Shown: piece by piece, positions 35,597 through 48,238 of the stretch | How the letters are laid out: each line of letters starts with the position of its first letter | Position numbering within the stretch: position 1 is the stretch's first letter | Assembly: GCA_009914755.4 (NCBI GenBank) | Contig: CP068257.2 | Span: 37,536,001 to 37,600,000 of the forward strand | DNA: 64,000 nucleotides | Direction of reading: 5' to 3' | From: the human T2T-CHM13v2.0 reference genome, Homo sapiens | Translations under genes and position numbers: made by a program | The notes under the pieces: generated by a model | The model's input: only the letters and a program-made list of their open reading frames with translations | The model's database searches: none | Told to the model about the DNA's origin: nothing

Positions 35597-35988
35597 CTAT
35601 TGTGCATTTTCTTTCCAGGATCTGAACCCCCTTAAAAAAAGCATTTTTCTATTAATATCTTCTAGCTCTTTTTCACTTTCAGAATTTATGGTTGTATCAT
35701 CCTCTTTATAAACATTCAGTAATTTTTTCTTAGCCGCAGCAGAAGCATTTCGATGGGGCAGTTTTCTGCTACTCTTCCTAATCCAGACATTTTCTGGTCC
35801 TGAGATCGTTTCTTTTAGATTACTCATTATCTTTATTTTATTTGCAGCAACAGTAGCACATCTGCGGGGAACTTTCTCAGGTACCATTTTTGCTTTCAGA
35901 GTTTCACTAGGCATCTGCACTGCATCCTTCTGATTATGCATACATGTTCTCACTTTTGTATTGGGTTCTCTGTCTCTAGGAACAAATT
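35597..35988 (-). CDS. BRWD1: BRWD1-type terminal coding exon h: (E)[114 protein letters not shown]...KENAQ*
   Basis: ORF 35597..35953(-). Acceptor tcatttttcag|AA at 35990-35989 with phase 2 entry (G+AA = Glu). Carries the third copy of the CAxxAANKIK / KLPHRNASA module. Confidence 0.65.
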
Positions 35989-38900
35989 CTGAAAAATGAG
36001 TGAAAGTTCATGTAAATGCAAAAATCTTGTAACACAAGATTTTACTACTGCTAACATTCCTCAACAACACTCATTCGGAAACAATAAATTTAAAAGTCAT
36101 ATTGCTAAATGATAAATTTTAAAATGTGATACTAAGGGCTTCTTCACATTGATATAACCTTACATTTGCTTATCTACAACTATAAGGATGTCACTTAAAA
36201 CAGTAGCAGACTTGTAAGAATGGGGTGAAAAGTTCCTTCAGCATCGGCATCATAAAGCTGCTAATCTAAAAACATATATATGAGCATTTTACATAATTTG
36301 AATTACTAAATCTTAACTTCATTGTTCCAGTATTTTCTGACCTAGGTATGTGACACACGAGATTCAGATTAAAATTCTAAAAAATAACACAGAGTTGCTT
36401 TAAGGAACCAAAAAGTGCAGAGTGCTATGAGAACACAGACTGGAAACCTAACCTAGCCTAAGGGATCAAGGAAGGCTTCCTTTAAGGAAGCTTTTAGACG
36501 AGAGGTGAAAATTGTGAAGGGATTTGCCAGACAAAAAGCACTTTGGAGAGTTAACTACTTCATGCAGACTAAGGCAGTTTTTAGAGGGGGCTTGAAATCA
36601 CACTGGAGCTCTACACAGCCACATGATGCCAGAGCTACTACTCCGTGCTGACCAAACTTAGGAGGGCTCAGATATGTTTGTTACCAGTGTCTCAAAGCCA
36701 AATTTTCAAATTTCACAAACAAGTCTAATTAGTACTCTTCTAGAACAGAAGTGATATTCCTTTTACGTATCTGAAGTTCACGGGCCCTTGAATTTTAGGT
36801 CTTTCTTGCAGCCATGAACAGTCAAACTATCTAAAACTGCCTTCATGGTACACACCAATCTTGATGGCAGTTTGTTTTGTAGGACCCTGCCTGAAGTTTC
36901 CAGACACTTAGCATTCAAAAGGTAAGGCTGTAGATCACTGAAATAACCAGTTGATATCCTCCACCCACACTAGACATCTGGAGGACTCCACCACATTCTT
37001 TTTACTACTAAGTACTAGAAAATGAGAGCTCTTTTAGTCAGATACTATCAAGTAACACTATTATTCTGTAGCAATGAAACTACCAATGCCAACCTTCTGA
37101 ACTTTTTCTTCTGTGAAGATGTTTGCCCTTCTGTCACAAAGCTGACTGAAGGGCAGATGAGTACAGGTAAAAACTGCTTCTGTGGACTGACATGTTCATA
37201 CAGCTAGACTAATGAGGCAGGCCTCTGCCCTCACAGTGCAAGCACTTCAGATTTTTCCCTAAGTCTATGAAACTGATTTCACACTTCTCTAAGATCAGTT
37301 GAGCGTTCTCCCCAGAATAGGTTAGGAAATACTTTATTCAAAGCAACCCCACCACATACACATCAGTTCCTTTTGCCAACTAACTTATGTGATTCACATG
37401 TTTTTCCAGTGAAATTCTAAGGGCACTATGTTTTGTTCAGTGTTCAGTCTCCAGGCATTGTAAATGGCATTTTACCAGAGTAAGACACTCATCACGGCAT
37501 TACTCTCATGCAGCATGCCCTTACCTCCTTCAGCTGGACTCTGTGGGAAGAGAAGTGGCTTAAAGTGCACTGTGTTTACCACTTCAAAGACACTTCTCTT
37601 GGGAATTTTAAAATTATGAACTAGTATCTCCAACAAGTCAACCCTATATCCAAAATTAATCTTTAACACATTAAATCAATGTTAGCAAATGCTAAAATGT
37701 AAATATGCTACAAAGGGTAAACAAAAATTTTAAAATATGCAAAATTAAGGTGAAATTTGCACTTTATAGTAGGATGAGAATATACTATTATCAACTAGCT
37801 GCACCATTTGCATTTGGAAGAAAAGAACAGATAACTGGTTCATTCCCAACAACCTATTCATCCAGACAAATAGATAAAATTCTATTTCAACTACAATTTG
37901 TAACAAAATGCTTTAAGTTGCAGAAATTCCATTTTGATGTGTGATCAAAGTACCTATACTGACAATTTAGGAACCTAGTAAATACTAATTCTAACACATT
38001 TTAATAAATGTTTATTTGTCATCCAGAATAATGGAAAAGTTAAGATTCTGCAGGAAAAAAAAAACTAAAATCAGGTTTTTAAAAAATACTTAAGGAAATT
38101 TGAACTTCAGTAACTATGCCCAAGGGAGGGAGAATTTGAATTACACTGTACTCTAACTTGATAAAGCTGAATCTCTTAAGTCTTAGACAATAAAACAGGA
38201 ATTTCAGAGAATAAGGATAAAAACAATCTGAGGAAGACAAAACTGTGGAGAATTTTTTTAAATACATTCAAGTCAGTGTTAATTTTATTACTGAAAACTG
38301 AGTAAATTATAAAGTGCTTTTTCTCAAGAAAACTACAAACAGTTTTAGAAATATATATAGGATATTTCAGGGTTAGAAGTCAAATTTGTGTGTTAGGGTA
38401 CAAGCTTAAGAACTCTGGATGTTGCTGCTCTAACAATGCATTTGTGATGGTGCCATGTGATACTAAGAAGTCAGTAGAATCCCACCAGTCCTACTGCCTC
38501 AGATGAGTCTTGTTTCAGTCATGGGTTTACAAAGTCATTGAGTGCTTGAGGACTTGTTTTCCTGGAAGTGATTCCCTACTTGGGTATGGCAAGAACACAT
38601 CAGTAGTGTAAAACTGTACATCTGTAGTAGCACTCCATGATCATTTCCCTGGATGACCACTTTAAATTATAACTCACAGATATGTGTGTATTCTAAGATG
38701 GTATATGTGGTGAATAGAAACCTGGATACAAACATAACAGTTCTGACTCAACACAATCTCTAGTTTCTACATTTTAAGGATTAATCATATTCTAATTAGA
38801 CTTTTTTTTTATTTTTAAGCTACCTTATTTACAGATTCTGCACAATATTTCATCATACAAAACTGTTTTCCTAAATTCAAAGTAAACTGCATATGGTTAC

Positions 38901-45991: not shown

Positions 45992-47338
45992 CTAAAAGTT
46001 AAAGAGCAGATTTCTATTAATCTTTTGTAAGTCTAAAGGAATTATATGTTCAATATTAAAAACAAGTTCAGAATTCGTATTAATTTGAAGGGGGTATTGC
46101 AGTGAATGGAATGGTACACACCTATTAGTATAGTCATATGTTGCTCAACAGCAAGGATACATTCTGAGAAATGCATCGTTAGGCTATTTCGTCTTAAGCA
46201 AACATCACAGAGTGTGCTTACACAAACCTTACAGTACACCCTACTACACATCTAGGTTATATGGTATAGCCTATTACTCCTAGGCTACAAACCTGTATGA
46301 CATGCTACTGTTCTGAATCCTGCAGGCAGTTGTCACACAATGGTAAGTCTGTGTCTGTGTATCCAAACAGAAAAGGTAATGCACTGCACTAGGACTTGAG
46401 GACAGCTATGATTACTTCACTAAGCAATAGAAATTTTTAACCTTCATTATAATCTTATGAGACCACCACTGTTATGCAGCACATGACTGTACTTTAAAGC
46501 AGTAACTTTTTCATCCTCAGCACCATTCACAAATTCAACACATTCTCAATAACATCCCATGATCTTGACACTATAATATTAACATGAATACAACTAAACT
46601 GTTTACCATAGCACTAGCATATGCAAAGTAATCACTTAACACTCAGCCTCTCTGAAACTCCCCGTAACTCCCCAAGCTCCAATCACACAATTACTTTTCA
46701 TCTTAGTTTTAGCTGTCTTCTGCTCTACAGTATTTTATCAATCCCCATGTACCAGGGGTACAATCTTAATTCAACAAGTTATTTCACCACTTTGTGCTCC
46801 AGTTATTACCTGTAAAATGAACAATAATGCTAGTACCTACTTCATAAAAGAAATGAAGACTAAACTGCTTATTAATGGAAAACATTTAGAAAAACTTCCT
46901 AATAGAAACAGCTCAGTAACTGTTTTATTTGCTATTACTAACATCTCTTTTTATTAAATAGTCCTACCCTTTTTGTCTACTACTTAAGCTATCAACATCA
47001 CAGCTTATAAATGTGCCCCTCTCTGCTTTATTCAAGCCCATCTCTAATATAATATATCCCCATCATCAATACAAGAAGTGAAATCTTCAATAGGCATAGT
47101 TCTTAAGGCCAAGATTGCCTGTTAGGTGAATAAAATTATACTCAATAAAAAGTTACGCATGCACATAAGAATATAAAGGATGAACAGAGAAGGCTAACAC
47201 AGAATGCATGGGAGGGAGAGAAACAGCAAAGAGAAAAAAGTTTCAAGGGAAACTTTTTCGGGGGGAAAAAACCAATGTGTGTAAGAGAAAAGGATGGTGA
47301 GAGTCAATCAGTGAACAAAGATAAATGTTTTGAATTAC

Positions 47339-48238
47339 CTTTCATAAAATTGTTTGGTTTTTCTATTTTGTCATCATCTGAATCTAAATCAGTTTCACAT
47401 CCATGATCTGAGGAACACTGGGACATAGCAATAGGGTCACAGTTCAGATTTCCTGAAATTGGGTTCATTTCCATTTTATGACATTTCCCATCTTCTCTAT
47501 CTTGCTCTTCAGATTCAGAGTCTTCTGAGTCACTCAGAATCTTGGTTTTTTTAAAGAAACTCGCATTCTTGTGAAATGTATTGTATTTCCTACCACCAGA
47601 TCTTCCTGGTTCAGAATCTGCTTCCTCTGAGATGCTCTCTGCCTTAAGTTTCTGCACAGACGTTGATGGGCCAGCAGTTCTGTTACATGCATGATCTGAA
47701 TCATGACTTTTAGAGTCTTCCTCAGAAGACTCTATTTTAAGAAATTTTGTCTTTGAAGGTGCTGGAGTATGGGACTTGTAACCATTAGCATGCCAATTTT
47801 TCCGGGCTACCCGCAAATCACTTTCTGACTCTGAGTCTCTGTTTTCAGATTCATCAACATTGCTCTGGGCAGTGTGAGAACTGGACACTGGTAATGGTTG
47901 ATTTTCATCTTTTAGCTCCTCTTCTTCAATTTCTGACTTTAAGCTCTGTTCATCTTCAGAATTATGTAATAACTTTTTTCTAGCTACAGCAGAAGCATTG
48001 CGGTGAGGCAGCTTCCGACCAGAACAGACACTTTCAGAGCTAGAATTCTCTTCTACATCACTCATTAGCTTTATTTTATTGGCAGCCACAGCAGCACACT
48101 TCCTTAAGACTTTTCGGTTATTTCCAGCTCTGGCTTTTAGAATTTCACCAGTCTCCAATGAATTGTTATCAGAATCACTTAAATAGACTCTCTTTCGAGT
48201 GGCTTTTCTGCCACATCCATTTGCTAATGAAACGGGAC
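47339..48238 (-). CDS. BRWD1: BRWD1-type coding exon f ([91 protein letters not shown] ... [10 protein letters not shown] + 1 nt)
   Basis: ORF 47304..48257(-). Acceptor tatttctag|GT at 48240-48239; donor AAA G|GTAATT. 900 nt = 2 + 299 codons + 1. Phase-joins exon e. Confidence 0.8.

What the first reader, a model, noticed from the sequence alone, without database searches (positions are those of the whole stretch)
35597..48238. Three-fold intragenic repeat: a roughly 50-aa CAxxAANKIK ... [16 protein letters not shown] module once in each of three consecutive large 3' exons of the BRWD1-type gene
**What the sequence shows.** Each of exons f (47339-48238), g (44835-45991) and h (35597-35988) encodes one copy of the same module. 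In exon f it reads [46 protein letters not shown]. In exon g it reads [49 protein letters not shown]. In exon h it reads [50 protein letters not shown].

**Wider paralogy.** Exons f and g are also paralogous over much of their remaining length. For example, [30 protein letters not shown] aligns with [28 protein letters not shown], and [28 protein letters not shown] aligns with NIHKIDAPSKRKSSSVTSSGEDSKSH. The C-terminal tail of this gene therefore arose by serial exon duplication.

**Interpretation.** The conserved core is a basic patch followed by a hydrophobic I-K-[LI]-M stretch and then an acidic or Ser-rich run. That architecture is typical of SUMO-interaction-type or phospho-dependent docking motifs; the conserved Cys may also matter. 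I am not aware of this repeat being an annotated domain.
Basis: partly seen in the sequence, partly recalled or inferred. Interest (0 to 1): 0.65.

Follow-up and report, generated by a model that had tools for sequence, protein, structure and literature searches.

The report
Triplicated helical motif in BRWD1 tail
The last three coding exons of this BRWD1-type gene each carry a copy of an unannotated ~55-residue motif, made by an ancient duplication of the gene's terminal exon; one copy is under very strong selection, but what it binds is unknown.

Summary
All seven quoted peptides are on the minus strand at the stated places. A motif HMM finds exactly three copies in the 64-kb window (88, 83 and 101 bits). 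Exons f and g align over 294 aa (E=6e-31).

The repeat is old, not primate-specific:
- Frog BRWD1 has one copy and newt BRWD1 one full copy.
- Tuatara, a squamate and mammals have three; birds have two.

The duplicated unit was the whole terminal exon, about 300-380 aa plus proximal 3'UTR. Human exon h is the surviving head of a third full unit. A frame-shifted relic of the rest lies just after its stop codon (35175-35540), and a paralogous 3'UTR element lies further downstream.

Selection differs by copy. Human-rodent dN/dS in the motif is 0.05 for f, about 0.35 pooled for h, and 0.42 for g, which has lost KLPHRNASA in mammals.

Pfam, NCBIfam, PDB sequences and the searchable literature have nothing on the motif. 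A profile search of 1.84 billion proteins returned 42 matches; every named one was tetrapod BRWD1.

AlphaFold2 predicts the [12 protein letters not shown] core as an alpha-helix in two copies. The strict SUMO-interaction core is met in only 5 of 27 copies, and the Cys is ancestrally Ser.

My best reading is a conserved helical docking motif in a disordered tail, with partner unknown. It is real, unannotated and of modest interest.

The parts
47339..48238 (-). Exon f: first full repeat unit (299 codons, symmetric phase 1-1 exon)
   Evidence: AG acceptor, GT donor and one open frame. It matches the unit HMM at 283 bits. Orthologous ORFs P0001-P0020 were found.
47961..48116 (-). Module copy 1 ([52 protein letters not shown]); the strongly constrained copy
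   Evidence: - Module HMM score 88 bits.
- Mean identity to human across 20 mammalian sequences is 0.95, against 0.73 for the rest of the exon.
- Human-rodent dN/dS is 0.049, against 0.22 for the rest.
- AF2 predicts a helix over [13 protein letters not shown] (48063-48101) at pLDDT 70-90.
45074..45991 (-). Exon g, short form: second repeat unit up to the internal donor AAAAG|GTAAAA (the donor GT is at 45073-45072), which splices in frame to exon h
   Evidence: The same ..RK|E.. junction appears in the tuatara gene model P0101.
45711..45869 (-). Module copy 2 ([53 protein letters not shown]); first half kept, second half degenerate
   Evidence: - Module HMM score 83 bits.
- Mean identity among mammals is 0.67, no better than the rest of the exon at 0.70.
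- dN/dS is 0.42, against 0.33 for the rest.
- KLPHRNASA is replaced by KPLHLAC, KPIRFAC or KPLRVAG in all mammals seen.
44835..45073 (-). Read-through extension of exon g to its stop codon: the alternative C-terminus ..RQRQSKRPRL..DWEDLDYAKSKRVLRRSKIKTRNQGRRTVRYHDGDDD..CTL*
   Evidence: - It ends in a stop codon.
- The tail has dN/dS 0.13 and mean identity 0.92 over residues 318-371.
- It is conserved in frogs, newt, tuatara and birds.
- It is the only part of the unit shared with an unnamed BRWD-family terminal exon (L013).
35597..35988 (-). Exon h: truncated third repeat unit, 129 codons ending in a stop; the alternative terminal coding exon
   Evidence: - AG acceptor and a stop codon.
- Unit HMM positions 2-122 match at 137 bits.
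- The ORF is kept in the 33 retrieved homologous ORFs (none carries a species name), most with the same ..KEKAQ* end.
35714..35878 (-). Module copy 3 ([55 protein letters not shown])
   Evidence: - Module HMM score 101 bits.
- Mean identity is 0.88, against 0.78 for the rest of the exon.
- Pooled dN/dS against four divergent mammals is 0.35, against 0.45 for the rest.
- AF2 predicts helices over [18 protein letters not shown] (pLDDT ~70-78) and [16 protein letters not shown] (~58-60).
35175..35540 (-). Decayed continuation of unit h in the 3'UTR. It is frame-shifted relative to exon h, contains a stop, and corresponds to unit positions 145-270 (..SKSH..EE.N..RW.G..).
   Evidence: - Unit HMM 16.9 bits, i-E 1e-6 over the six-frame window.
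- Three independent collinear tblastn hits, from human g (E=0.005), bird unit 3 and tuatara unit 1.
44600..44770 (-). Highly conserved non-coding element just downstream of the exon g stop codon
   Evidence: It is 95.5% identical to a rodent over 156 nt, and 81% identical to the sequence just after the bird terminal unit's stop over 162 nt. No RNA structure signal was found (z -0.31, no covariation).
34783..34896 (-). Paralogous copy of that 3'UTR element downstream of unit h. It shows that the duplicated unit included the proximal 3'UTR.
   Evidence: It is 75% identical to 44620-44748 over 130 nt, and is the only other strong match in the window. It is also present after exon h in two other mammals, L004 and L012.

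Best explanation
**Origin (shown; confidence about 0.85)**
- The C-terminal tail of tetrapod BRWD1 is built from a repeat unit that was once the gene's terminal exon.
- The unit holds a basic/acidic preamble, the ~55-aa module, an acidic Ser-rich middle, a KRKRKGK patch, the ..RRSKIKTRNQGRRTVRY.. end, the stop codon and a conserved proximal 3'UTR element.
- Frogs have one module. The unit was tandemly copied to three before or early in amniote evolution. Tuatara, squamates and mammals have three, and birds have two plus a tail relic.
- Upstream copies became internal exons by using a donor at ..VRK|G.., in phase 1.
- In mammals, unit 3 (exon h) lost its back half to frameshift and stop mutations. 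That produced a new short C-terminus.
- As a result the two alternative endings carry different loads. Splicing g to h gives three modules. Reading through g gives two modules plus the RTVRY tail.

**Function (inferred; confidence about 0.45)**
- The module is a two-part peptide docking element (MoRF/SLiM) in an otherwise disordered tail.
- Part one is an Ala-rich amphipathic helix, R-[RK]-[SC]-A-x-x-A-A-N-K-[IL]-[KR]-x-M-S-D.
- A Ser/Glu linker with CK2-type sites follows.
- Part two is a basic element, [12 protein letters not shown][RK]-K-x-L-L.
- I propose that it binds a folded partner, and that multiple copies add avidity.
- In mammals, copy f is the principal working copy. Copy h is a weaker, isoform-specific one. 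Copy g keeps only the first helix.
For: **Repeat and phases**

**Age and copy number**
- The profile search returned 42 hits, and every one that carries a name is tetrapod BRWD1.
- Module counts: 1 in four frogs, 1 in a newt, 3 in tuatara, 3 in a squamate transcript, 2 in a bird.
- The bird locus L001 has unit 1 with a tail relic plus a full h-type terminal unit.
- Human and opossum f are more alike (51.5%) than human f and g (36.9%). The f/g split therefore predates the therian divergence.
- Exon h and sauropsid unit 3 share the preamble RTCxxNxK and the variant IKI[MI]S[ND]xKE.

**Truncation of h**
- A relic lies at 35175-35540.
- The paralogous 3'UTR element is described.

**Constraint**
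- In f, the module has identity 0.95 against 0.73 for the rest, and dN/dS 0.049 against 0.22.
- The best-conserved 15-mer is [15 protein letters not shown] in f and [15 protein letters not shown] in h.
- The motif core is recognisable from frog to human.

**Structure**
- Two independent AF2 runs predict a helix over the first core at pLDDT 70-90, with low-confidence coil around it.
- A preprint independently describes the ~900-aa C-terminus as disordered.

**Nearly invariant positions**
- Over 27 copies: R, A, AA, K, M, S, then R, P, A, A, L.
Against: - No partner is known, and no experiment bears on the module. AF2 confidence is moderate only (mean pLDDT 59-60), and the second helix is weak.
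- The h copy shows only moderate constraint (pooled dN/dS 0.35). One rodent comparison gives 0.50 with oddly low dS. The g copy is evolving like its flanks.
- In mammals, therefore, multivalency rests mainly on f plus h.
- A neighbour-joining tree of ~90 aa does not resolve whether the three units are orthologous across amniotes or were homogenised or re-duplicated within lineages. Tuatara units 1 and 2 are 64% identical, more than either is to turtle or bird units.
- Fish BRWD1 and named PHIP/BRWD3 tails could not be examined directly.
Confidence: 0.55

Rival explanations
1. Phospho-regulated SUMO-interaction motif. I-K-[LI]-M would act as the hydrophobic SIM core, and the following S/D/E run as the CK2-phosphorylated acidic flank. 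Three copies would bind poly-SUMO chains.
For: - The f and g copies read [15 protein letters not shown]. That pattern, hydrophobic then acidic/Ser, resembles the phospho-SIMs of PIAS1, PML and Daxx (my own knowledge, not tested here).
- The S-D-V-E-E..S-S-S-E-S columns are well conserved in f-type copies.
Against: - The strict core, [VIL]x[VIL][VIL] or a variant, is met in only 5 of 27 copies and in none of the three human modules.
- Amphibian copies read IKNM or IKCM, a rodent h reads IRTM, and h replaces the acidic flank with SNLKET.
- AF2 predicts this stretch as part of a 13-18-residue helix in two copies.
- A SIM does not explain the invariant upstream AxxAAN or the second element, LPHRNASA.
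- No paper in the library links BRWD1 to SIMs.
Confidence: 0.08
2. Chromatin-contact element. The R-R-[SC]-A start acts as an arginine anchor on the nucleosome acidic patch (HMGN-like), and/or the basic second half contacts DNA. This would add further nucleosome contacts to BRWD1's Tudor and bromodomain reading.
For: - Sauropsid copies read PRRSA(A/T)VAA, amphibian copies R-K/R-SAA, and h reads PRRCATVAA.
- Functional HMGN-type motifs read RRSARLSA, RRSSRLTS and RRSARIAT (PMC13347269).
- BRWD1 is a chromatin reader, and the related PHIP makes multivalent nucleosome contacts.
Against: - The third essential arginine, motif position 5, is Ala or Thr in 26 of 27 copies and Ser in the other.
- The f copy has RK rather than RR.
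- The resemblance covers only 4-6 residues and was first recalled from memory.
- AF2 starts a helix immediately after the arginines, whereas HMGN motifs bind in extended form (my own knowledge).
Confidence: 0.12
3. Bipartite nuclear localisation signal. RK-(10 residues)-[RK]KK in the second half binds importin-alpha, and the repeats are redundant NLSs.
For: - Human f reads [15 protein letters not shown] and h reads [15 protein letters not shown].
- Both fit the classical (K/R)(K/R)-X10-12-basic cluster spacing. The consensus comes from my own knowledge; the sequences come.
Against: - NLS spacers are normally free to vary. Here the spacer, LPHRNASA, is the most conserved part of the exon.
- Frog copies have R-T rather than a basic pair, and sauropsid copies end RKLLL or RRMLL, which is a weak basic cluster.
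- The tail already has strong monopartite candidates, KRKRKGK and KRPRL.
- An NLS does not explain the first helix.
Confidence: 0.1
4. No present function. The repeats are simply the residue of exon duplication in a fast-evolving disordered tail.
For: - The g copy evolves like its flanks (dN/dS 0.42 against 0.33) and lost its second half.
- Birds lost a unit, and h lost two thirds of its unit.
- Frog tails carry other, unrelated tandem expansions.
Against: - The f module has dN/dS 0.049 with saturated synonymous sites.
- Its mean identity to human across 20 mammalian sequences is 0.95, and the motif is recognisable from frog to human.
- The h ORF is kept open in the retrieved homologous ORFs.
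Confidence: 0.05

Closest known systems
Tandem exon duplication producing repeated linear motifs in disordered protein tails (a general, well-described mode of protein evolution)
   Same: - The repeats are adjacent, same-phase exons with collinear similarity.
- The copies diverge and decay unevenly.
- A relic of the lost part remains downstream.
   Different: - The duplicated unit here was the terminal exon together with its stop codon and proximal 3'UTR.
- The duplication therefore also created alternative C-termini and alternative 3'UTRs, not only extra internal repeats.
Phospho-SIMs of PIAS1, PML and Daxx (from my own knowledge)
   Same: A short hydrophobic patch is followed by a Ser/Asp/Glu run with CK2-type sites.
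   Different: - Position 4 is Met, and position 3 is polar in amphibians.
- The stretch is predicted helical.
- There is a long conserved Ala-rich segment upstream and a second conserved basic element downstream.
- The h copy lacks the acidic run.
HMGN-type nucleosome-binding motif RRSARLSA (also Dsup RRSSRLTS and Dot5 RRSARIAT; PMC13347269)
   Same: The module starts R-R-S-A in many copies, with a hydrophobic residue at position 6 and small residues at positions 7-8. It sits in a chromatin reader.
   Different: The third essential arginine is absent in all 27 copies, and the segment continues as a predicted helix.
Classical bipartite NLS (nucleoplasmin type; from my own knowledge)
   Same: RK - 10 residues - RKK/KKK spacing in human f and h.
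   Different: The spacer is the most conserved part. The basic pair or cluster is incomplete in frogs and sauropsids.
BRWD-family C-terminal end (..TRNQGRRTV.Y..)
   Same: - The last ~145 positions of the unit align at 51.6 bits with an unnamed BRWD-family terminal exon, L013/P0124. This stretch runs from KxKxLSDSEE through KRKxKGK to TRNQGRRTVxY.
- The terminal-exon framework is therefore older than the module repeat.
   Different: That exon has no module (module HMM 3.8 bits). I could not tell whether it is PHIP, BRWD3 or a fish BRWD1.

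Membership tests
Intragenic tandem exon duplication | Neighbouring exons with statistically significant, collinear protein similarity | tested here: met
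   f-g E=6e-31 over 294 aa; f-h E=9e-19; g-h E=4e-12. Shuffles: 0 of 2000 reached the observed scores.
Intragenic tandem exon duplication | Compatible intron phases, so that copies can be spliced in series | tested here: met
   All three exons start two bases before a codon boundary. Exon f is symmetric 1-1. The g internal donor joins h in frame.
Intragenic tandem exon duplication | Similarity extends beyond the part now used as exon (flanks or relics) | tested here: met
   A relic of unit positions 145-270 lies at 35175-35540. The 3'UTR element is paralogous at 75% over 130 nt. A relic of the tail follows bird unit 1.
SUMO-interaction motif (SIM) | Hydrophobic core [VIL]x[VIL][VIL], [VIL][VIL]x[VIL] or four consecutive [VIL] residues | tested here: not met
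   Present in 5 of 27 copies. None of the three human modules has it: IKLM, IKLM and IKIM. Amphibians read IKNM or IKCM.
SUMO-interaction motif (SIM) | Acidic or phosphorylatable flank next to the core | tested here: inconclusive
   Present in f, g and sauropsid units 1 and 2 (SDVEE..SSSES). Replaced by SNLKET in mammalian h and by SD[AT]KEE in sauropsid unit 3.
SUMO-interaction motif (SIM) | Binds SUMO as an extended strand | not testable with these tools
   AF2 of the free peptide predicts a helix over the core in two copies. That argues against a strand but does not test binding.
HMGN-like nucleosome acidic-patch motif (RRSARLSA) | Three essential arginines at motif positions 1, 2 and 5 | tested here: not met
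   Positions 1 and 2 are R-R or R-K. Position 5 is Ala or Thr in 26 of 27 copies and Ser in the other. The requirement is taken from PMC13347269.
HMGN-like nucleosome acidic-patch motif (RRSARLSA) | Acidic-patch-dependent nucleosome binding | not testable with these tools
   No binding assay or complex prediction was available.
Annotated protein domain (Pfam-A / NCBIfam / solved structure) | Match to a curated family model or to a PDB chain | tested here: not met
   Pfam: no family for f or g, and only a sub-threshold chance hit for h. NCBIfam: none. PDB sequences: best E=2.5, an antibody chain. InterPro and UniProt features could not be queried.
MoRF/SLiM in a disordered region | Embedded in a region predicted to be disordered | tested here: met
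   AF2 gives coil at pLDDT 50-65 around the module. A preprint reports a ~900-aa disordered C-terminus.
MoRF/SLiM in a disordered region | An island of conservation relative to its flanks | tested here: met
   f: 0.95 against 0.73 identity, and dN/dS 0.049 against 0.22. h: 0.88 against 0.78. g: not met, 0.67 against 0.70.
MoRF/SLiM in a disordered region | Local propensity for secondary structure | tested here: met
   Helix over [13 protein letters not shown] in f and [18 protein letters not shown] in h, at pLDDT 70-90.
MoRF/SLiM in a disordered region | A defined binding partner | not testable with these tools
   Candidates from the literature are cohesin, USP7 and BRG1. None of these interactions has been mapped to the tail.
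Classical bipartite NLS | Two basic clusters separated by a 10-12-residue spacer of free sequence | tested here: inconclusive
   The spacing fits in human f and h. The spacer is the most conserved segment, and the basic clusters are incomplete in frogs and sauropsids.

The most novel reading that the evidence does not exclude
The module is a previously unrecognised, tetrapod-BRWD1-specific helical ligand for a chromatin partner such as cohesin's STAG-kleisin module or the nucleosome. Its valency would be set by the choice of alternative 3' exon: three copies when g is spliced to h, or two copies plus the RTVRY tail and its ultra-conserved 3'UTR element when g is read through. That choice would tune how BRWD1 engages chromatin.
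Probability: 0.1. Interest if true: 0.6.

Novelty: new member of a known kind. Interest (0 to 1): 0.35.

Why it matters
BRWD1 is a chromatin reader and CRL4 substrate receptor. It matters for B-cell and germ-cell development and has been implicated in Down-syndrome phenotypes. Its ~900-residue tail is usually dismissed as disordered and has no assigned function.

This work picks out a short, strongly constrained element in that tail (dN/dS 0.05, conserved from frog to human). It also shows how the tail was built and that the two C-terminal isoforms carry different numbers of the element. That gives a concrete peptide to use in pull-downs or complex prediction, and a concrete deletion to make.

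It is an incremental finding about one gene. It is not a new kind of system.

Tried and rejected
1. **A second, degenerate copy of the module inside each unit** ([27 protein letters not shown] in f). Pairwise Smith-Waterman against shuffles looked suggestive (z=6.7, 1 of 2000). The module HMM gives -3 to +3 bits there. Profile-profile hhalign gives 13% probability, P=0.002, and in a different register. I do not claim it.
2. **Resolving orthology of the units by tree.** Neighbour-joining on ~90 aa with 300 bootstraps leaves all deep nodes below 50%. A first attempt timed out.
3. **PHIP/BRWD3 and fish.** The profile search of 1.84 billion representatives gave only 42 hits. All named ones are tetrapod BRWD1, plus one unnamed BRWD-like terminal exon without the module. 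The metagenome scan returned only BRWD1 units. Named PHIP/BRWD3 sequences could not be fetched, so absence there is inferred, not shown.
4. **Curated libraries.** Pfam, NCBIfam and PDB sequences gave nothing.
5. **Literature.**
   - No paper held describes the tail repeat.
   - The motif strings return only irrelevant hits.
   - Mandal et al. 2024 on BRWD1 and cohesin is not held.
6. **RNA structure in the conserved 3'UTR element.** There is no Rfam match and no thermodynamic or covariation signal.
7. **Hydrophobic-moment analysis.** It did not separate helix from strand periodicity clearly: 0.92 at 100 degrees against 0.73-0.80 at 160-170 degrees.

Full report

Yes.

The three exons have AG acceptors and one open frame each. 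Exon f (47339-48238) has a GT donor. Exons g (44835-45991) and h (35597-35988) both end in stop codons. Exon g also has an internal donor, AAAAG|GTAAAA, at 45074/45073. It joins exon h in frame to read ..VVRK-E-FVPRD... So g and h are alternative terminal coding exons, and all three exons begin in the same phase.

BLASTP gives these pairwise results:
- f-g: 38% identity over 294 aa, E=6e-31.
- f-h: 52% over 90 aa, E=9e-19.
- g-h: 40% over 78 aa, E=4e-12.

None of 2000 composition-preserving shuffles of the ~55-aa modules reaches the observed scores. A 58-column HMM of the module, run over all six frames of the window, finds exactly three copies and nothing else: 47961-48116 (88 bits), 45711-45869 (83 bits) and 35714-35878 (101 bits).

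**2. How old is it, and what was duplicated?**

Homology searches with each exon returned exon-sized ORFs from many vertebrate assemblies and a few named tail fragments.

A profile of the whole unit was searched against 1.84 billion cluster representatives. It gave only 42 hits at E<=0.001. Every hit that carries a name is tetrapod BRWD1.

The module HMM counts copies as follows:

| Lineage | Full module copies |
|---|---|
| Four frogs | 1 |
| Newt | 1 (plus a weak half-copy) |
| Tuatara | 3 |
| Squamate full-length transcript (second unit half-degenerate) | 3 |
| Bird | 2 |
| Human, when g is spliced to h | 3 |

A 21-kb bird locus shows the following order: a bromodomain exon; one f/g-type unit followed immediately by a decayed relic of the RRSKI..RTVRY tail; then, 7 kb downstream, a full-length terminal unit. 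That terminal unit begins like human exon h (RTCIINYKKH.., [18 protein letters not shown]) and ends like human exon g (RRSKIRTRNGGRRTVRY).

Tuatara and the squamate have the same h-type third unit at full length.

Human and opossum f are more similar to each other (51.5%) than human f is to human g (36.9%). The f/g split therefore predates the therian divergence.

**3. Exon h is a truncated unit**

The unit HMM detects a frame-shifted, stop-containing continuation of unit h just after its stop codon, at 35175-35540. It covers unit positions 145-270 at 16.9 bits, i-E 1e-6. Three collinear tblastn hits from human g, bird unit 3 and tuatara unit 1 support it.

Further downstream, 34783-34896 is 75% identical over 130 nt to 44620-44748, the sequence just after the g stop codon.

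That non-coding element is striking. The g copy is 95.5% identical between human and a rodent. It is 81% identical to the sequence just after the stop of the bird terminal unit. It has no RNA-structure signal.

The duplicated unit was therefore the whole terminal exon, including its stop codon and proximal 3'UTR. The unit is about 300-380 aa, however, not 50 aa.

**4. Is it under selection?**

Unequally.

| Exon | Module identity to human (mammals) | Rest of exon | Module dN/dS | Rest dN/dS |
|---|---|---|---|---|
| f | 0.95 | 0.73 | 0.049 | 0.22 |
| g | 0.67 | 0.70 | 0.42 | 0.33 |
| h | 0.88 | 0.78 | 0.35 | 0.45 |

Identities come, and dN/dS. The f and g dN/dS values are human against one rodent. 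The h values are pooled over four divergent mammals, which is a biased and noisy sample.

- The most conserved 15-mer of exon f is [15 protein letters not shown] (0.98). In exon h it is [15 protein letters not shown] (0.94).
- In exon g, KLPHRNASA is replaced by KPLHLAC, KPIRFAC or KPLRVAG in all mammals seen.
- Constraint in g sits elsewhere. [20 protein letters not shown] has dN/dS 0.09, and the C-terminal tail has 0.13.
It is derived, not essential.

**5. What does it look like structurally?**

Two AlphaFold2 runs on different copies, each with ~32-sequence alignments, agree on a helix over the first core:
- [13 protein letters not shown] in f.
- [18 protein letters not shown] in h.

Both are at pLDDT 70-90. 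A weaker second helix covers ASAVAR in f and [16 protein letters not shown] in h. Low-confidence coil surrounds them. A preprint independently describes the ~900-aa BRWD1 C-terminus as disordered.

Nearly invariant positions over 27 copies are R, A, A-A, K, [IL], M, S in the first half and R, P, A, A, L in the second.

This is the signature of a pre-structured docking motif (MoRF/SLiM) in a disordered tail.

**6.

*SUMO-interaction motif.*
- The strict SIM core occurs in 5 of 27 copies and in none of the three human modules.
- Amphibian copies read IKNM or IKCM.
- Copy h lacks the acidic flank.
- The stretch is predicted helical.
- The SIM reading is therefore not supported, although a phospho-regulated interaction is not excluded.

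*HMGN-type acidic-patch motif.* I noticed a resemblance between R-R-S-A-x-V-A-A and RRSARLSA. It fails on a defining feature: the third essential arginine is absent in all 27 copies, with Ala or Thr in 26 and Ser in one.

*Bipartite NLS.* An RK-x10-RKK reading fits human f and h. The 'spacer' is the most conserved part, though, and the basic clusters are incomplete in frogs and sauropsids.

**7. Is it known?**

- Pfam-A, NCBIfam and PDB sequences have nothing.
- No paper I could search describes a repeat in the BRWD1 tail.
- The motif strings return no relevant text.
- One unnamed BRWD-family terminal exon (L013) aligns with only the last ~145 unit positions. It has no module. The terminal-exon framework is therefore older than the module.
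- I could not fetch named PHIP, BRWD3 or fish BRWD1 tails. 'BRWD1-specific' is an inference from the absence of hits.

**8. Verdict**

The feature is real and ancient, and at least copy f is functional. It is an unannotated conserved helical motif, triplicated by tandem duplication of the terminal exon.

The origin is well supported (about 0.85). The docking-motif function is an inference (about 0.45), with no partner identified. Literature candidates are cohesin, USP7 and BRG1, and none has been mapped to the tail.

It is a new member of a known kind, and of modest interest.

Noticed in passing
window 44600-44770 (-); paralogue at 34783-34896 (-); L003 3174-3329; L001 19402-19563; L002 4650-4811: A ~160-nt non-coding element starts ~65-90 nt after the stop codon of the RTVRY-ending terminal unit. 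It is 95.5% identical between human and a rodent, and 81% identical between human and bird. It has no Rfam match and no fold or covariation signal, so it appears conserved as primary sequence. It may be a 3'UTR regulatory element.
   Followed up: partly
window 45306-45395 (-), exon g residues 199-228: [28 protein letters not shown] is the most conserved stretch of exon g. The 15-mer [15 protein letters not shown] is identical in all 24 mammalian sequences, and dN/dS is 0.09. The aligned stretch in exon f has diverged. It looks like a separate motif specific to unit g.
   Followed up: partly
window 44877-45038 (-), exon g residues 318-371; L013 116-607: The tail ..RQRQSKRPRL..DWEDLDYAKSKRVLRRSKIKTRNQGRRTVRYHDGDDD is conserved from frogs to human. 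Its core, TRNQGRRTVxY, also appears in an unnamed BRWD-family terminal exon that continues ..[25 protein letters not shown]. I could not tell whether that exon is PHIP, BRWD3 or a fish BRWD1.
   Followed up: partly
window exon f: residues 14-25, 53-68, 162-176, 228-244 (and the equivalents in g): A short pattern recurs about four times per unit: basic residues, then two hydrophobic residues, then S-D/E-S-E-D. The examples are [34 protein letters not shown] and [16 protein letters not shown]. Support is weak (module HMM 2-5 bits each; hhalign P=0.002, 13% probability).
   Followed up: partly
window ~31300-32300, start codon at 31955 (-): A CpG-island-like stretch (GC 0.65, CpG observed/expected 0.96) contains an ORF on the minus strand starting MAATFFGEVVKAPCRAGTEDEEEEEEGRRETPEDREVRLQLARKR. 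From memory, this is exon 1 of PSMG1. It lies a few kb beyond the exon h stop.
   Followed up: partly
window 5553-6605: A GC-rich tandem repeat (..CCGTCTGAGAAGTGAGGAG..CCGCCCGGCC..) gives long spurious ORFs. It resembles the VNTR/Alu-like part of an SVA retrotransposon (recognised from memory, not tested).
   Followed up: no
window 43000-44834 (-): There is no AATAAA or ATTAAA hexamer within 1.8 kb downstream of the exon g stop. Several occur after exon h, including one at 34753, about 30 nt beyond the paralogous 3'UTR element.
   Followed up: no
P0117 (Aquarana), P0140 (Eleutherodactylus), P0132 (Lissotriton) tails: Amphibian BRWD1 tails carry other lineage-specific tandem expansions. These include a threefold ~140-aa repeat containing ..ECRVVLTNCVA.. 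in bullfrog, SDSEEEMGVR four times in coqui, and extra LPHKASAAVKKKL-like half-motifs in newt. The tail appears prone to internal duplication.
   Followed up: no
P0101 (tuatara) and P0065 (turtle): Units 1 and 2 within tuatara are 64% identical, which is more than either is to turtle or bird units. Units 1 and 2 within turtle also look much more alike than human f and g. This suggests gene conversion or a more recent re-duplication in these lineages.
   Followed up: partly
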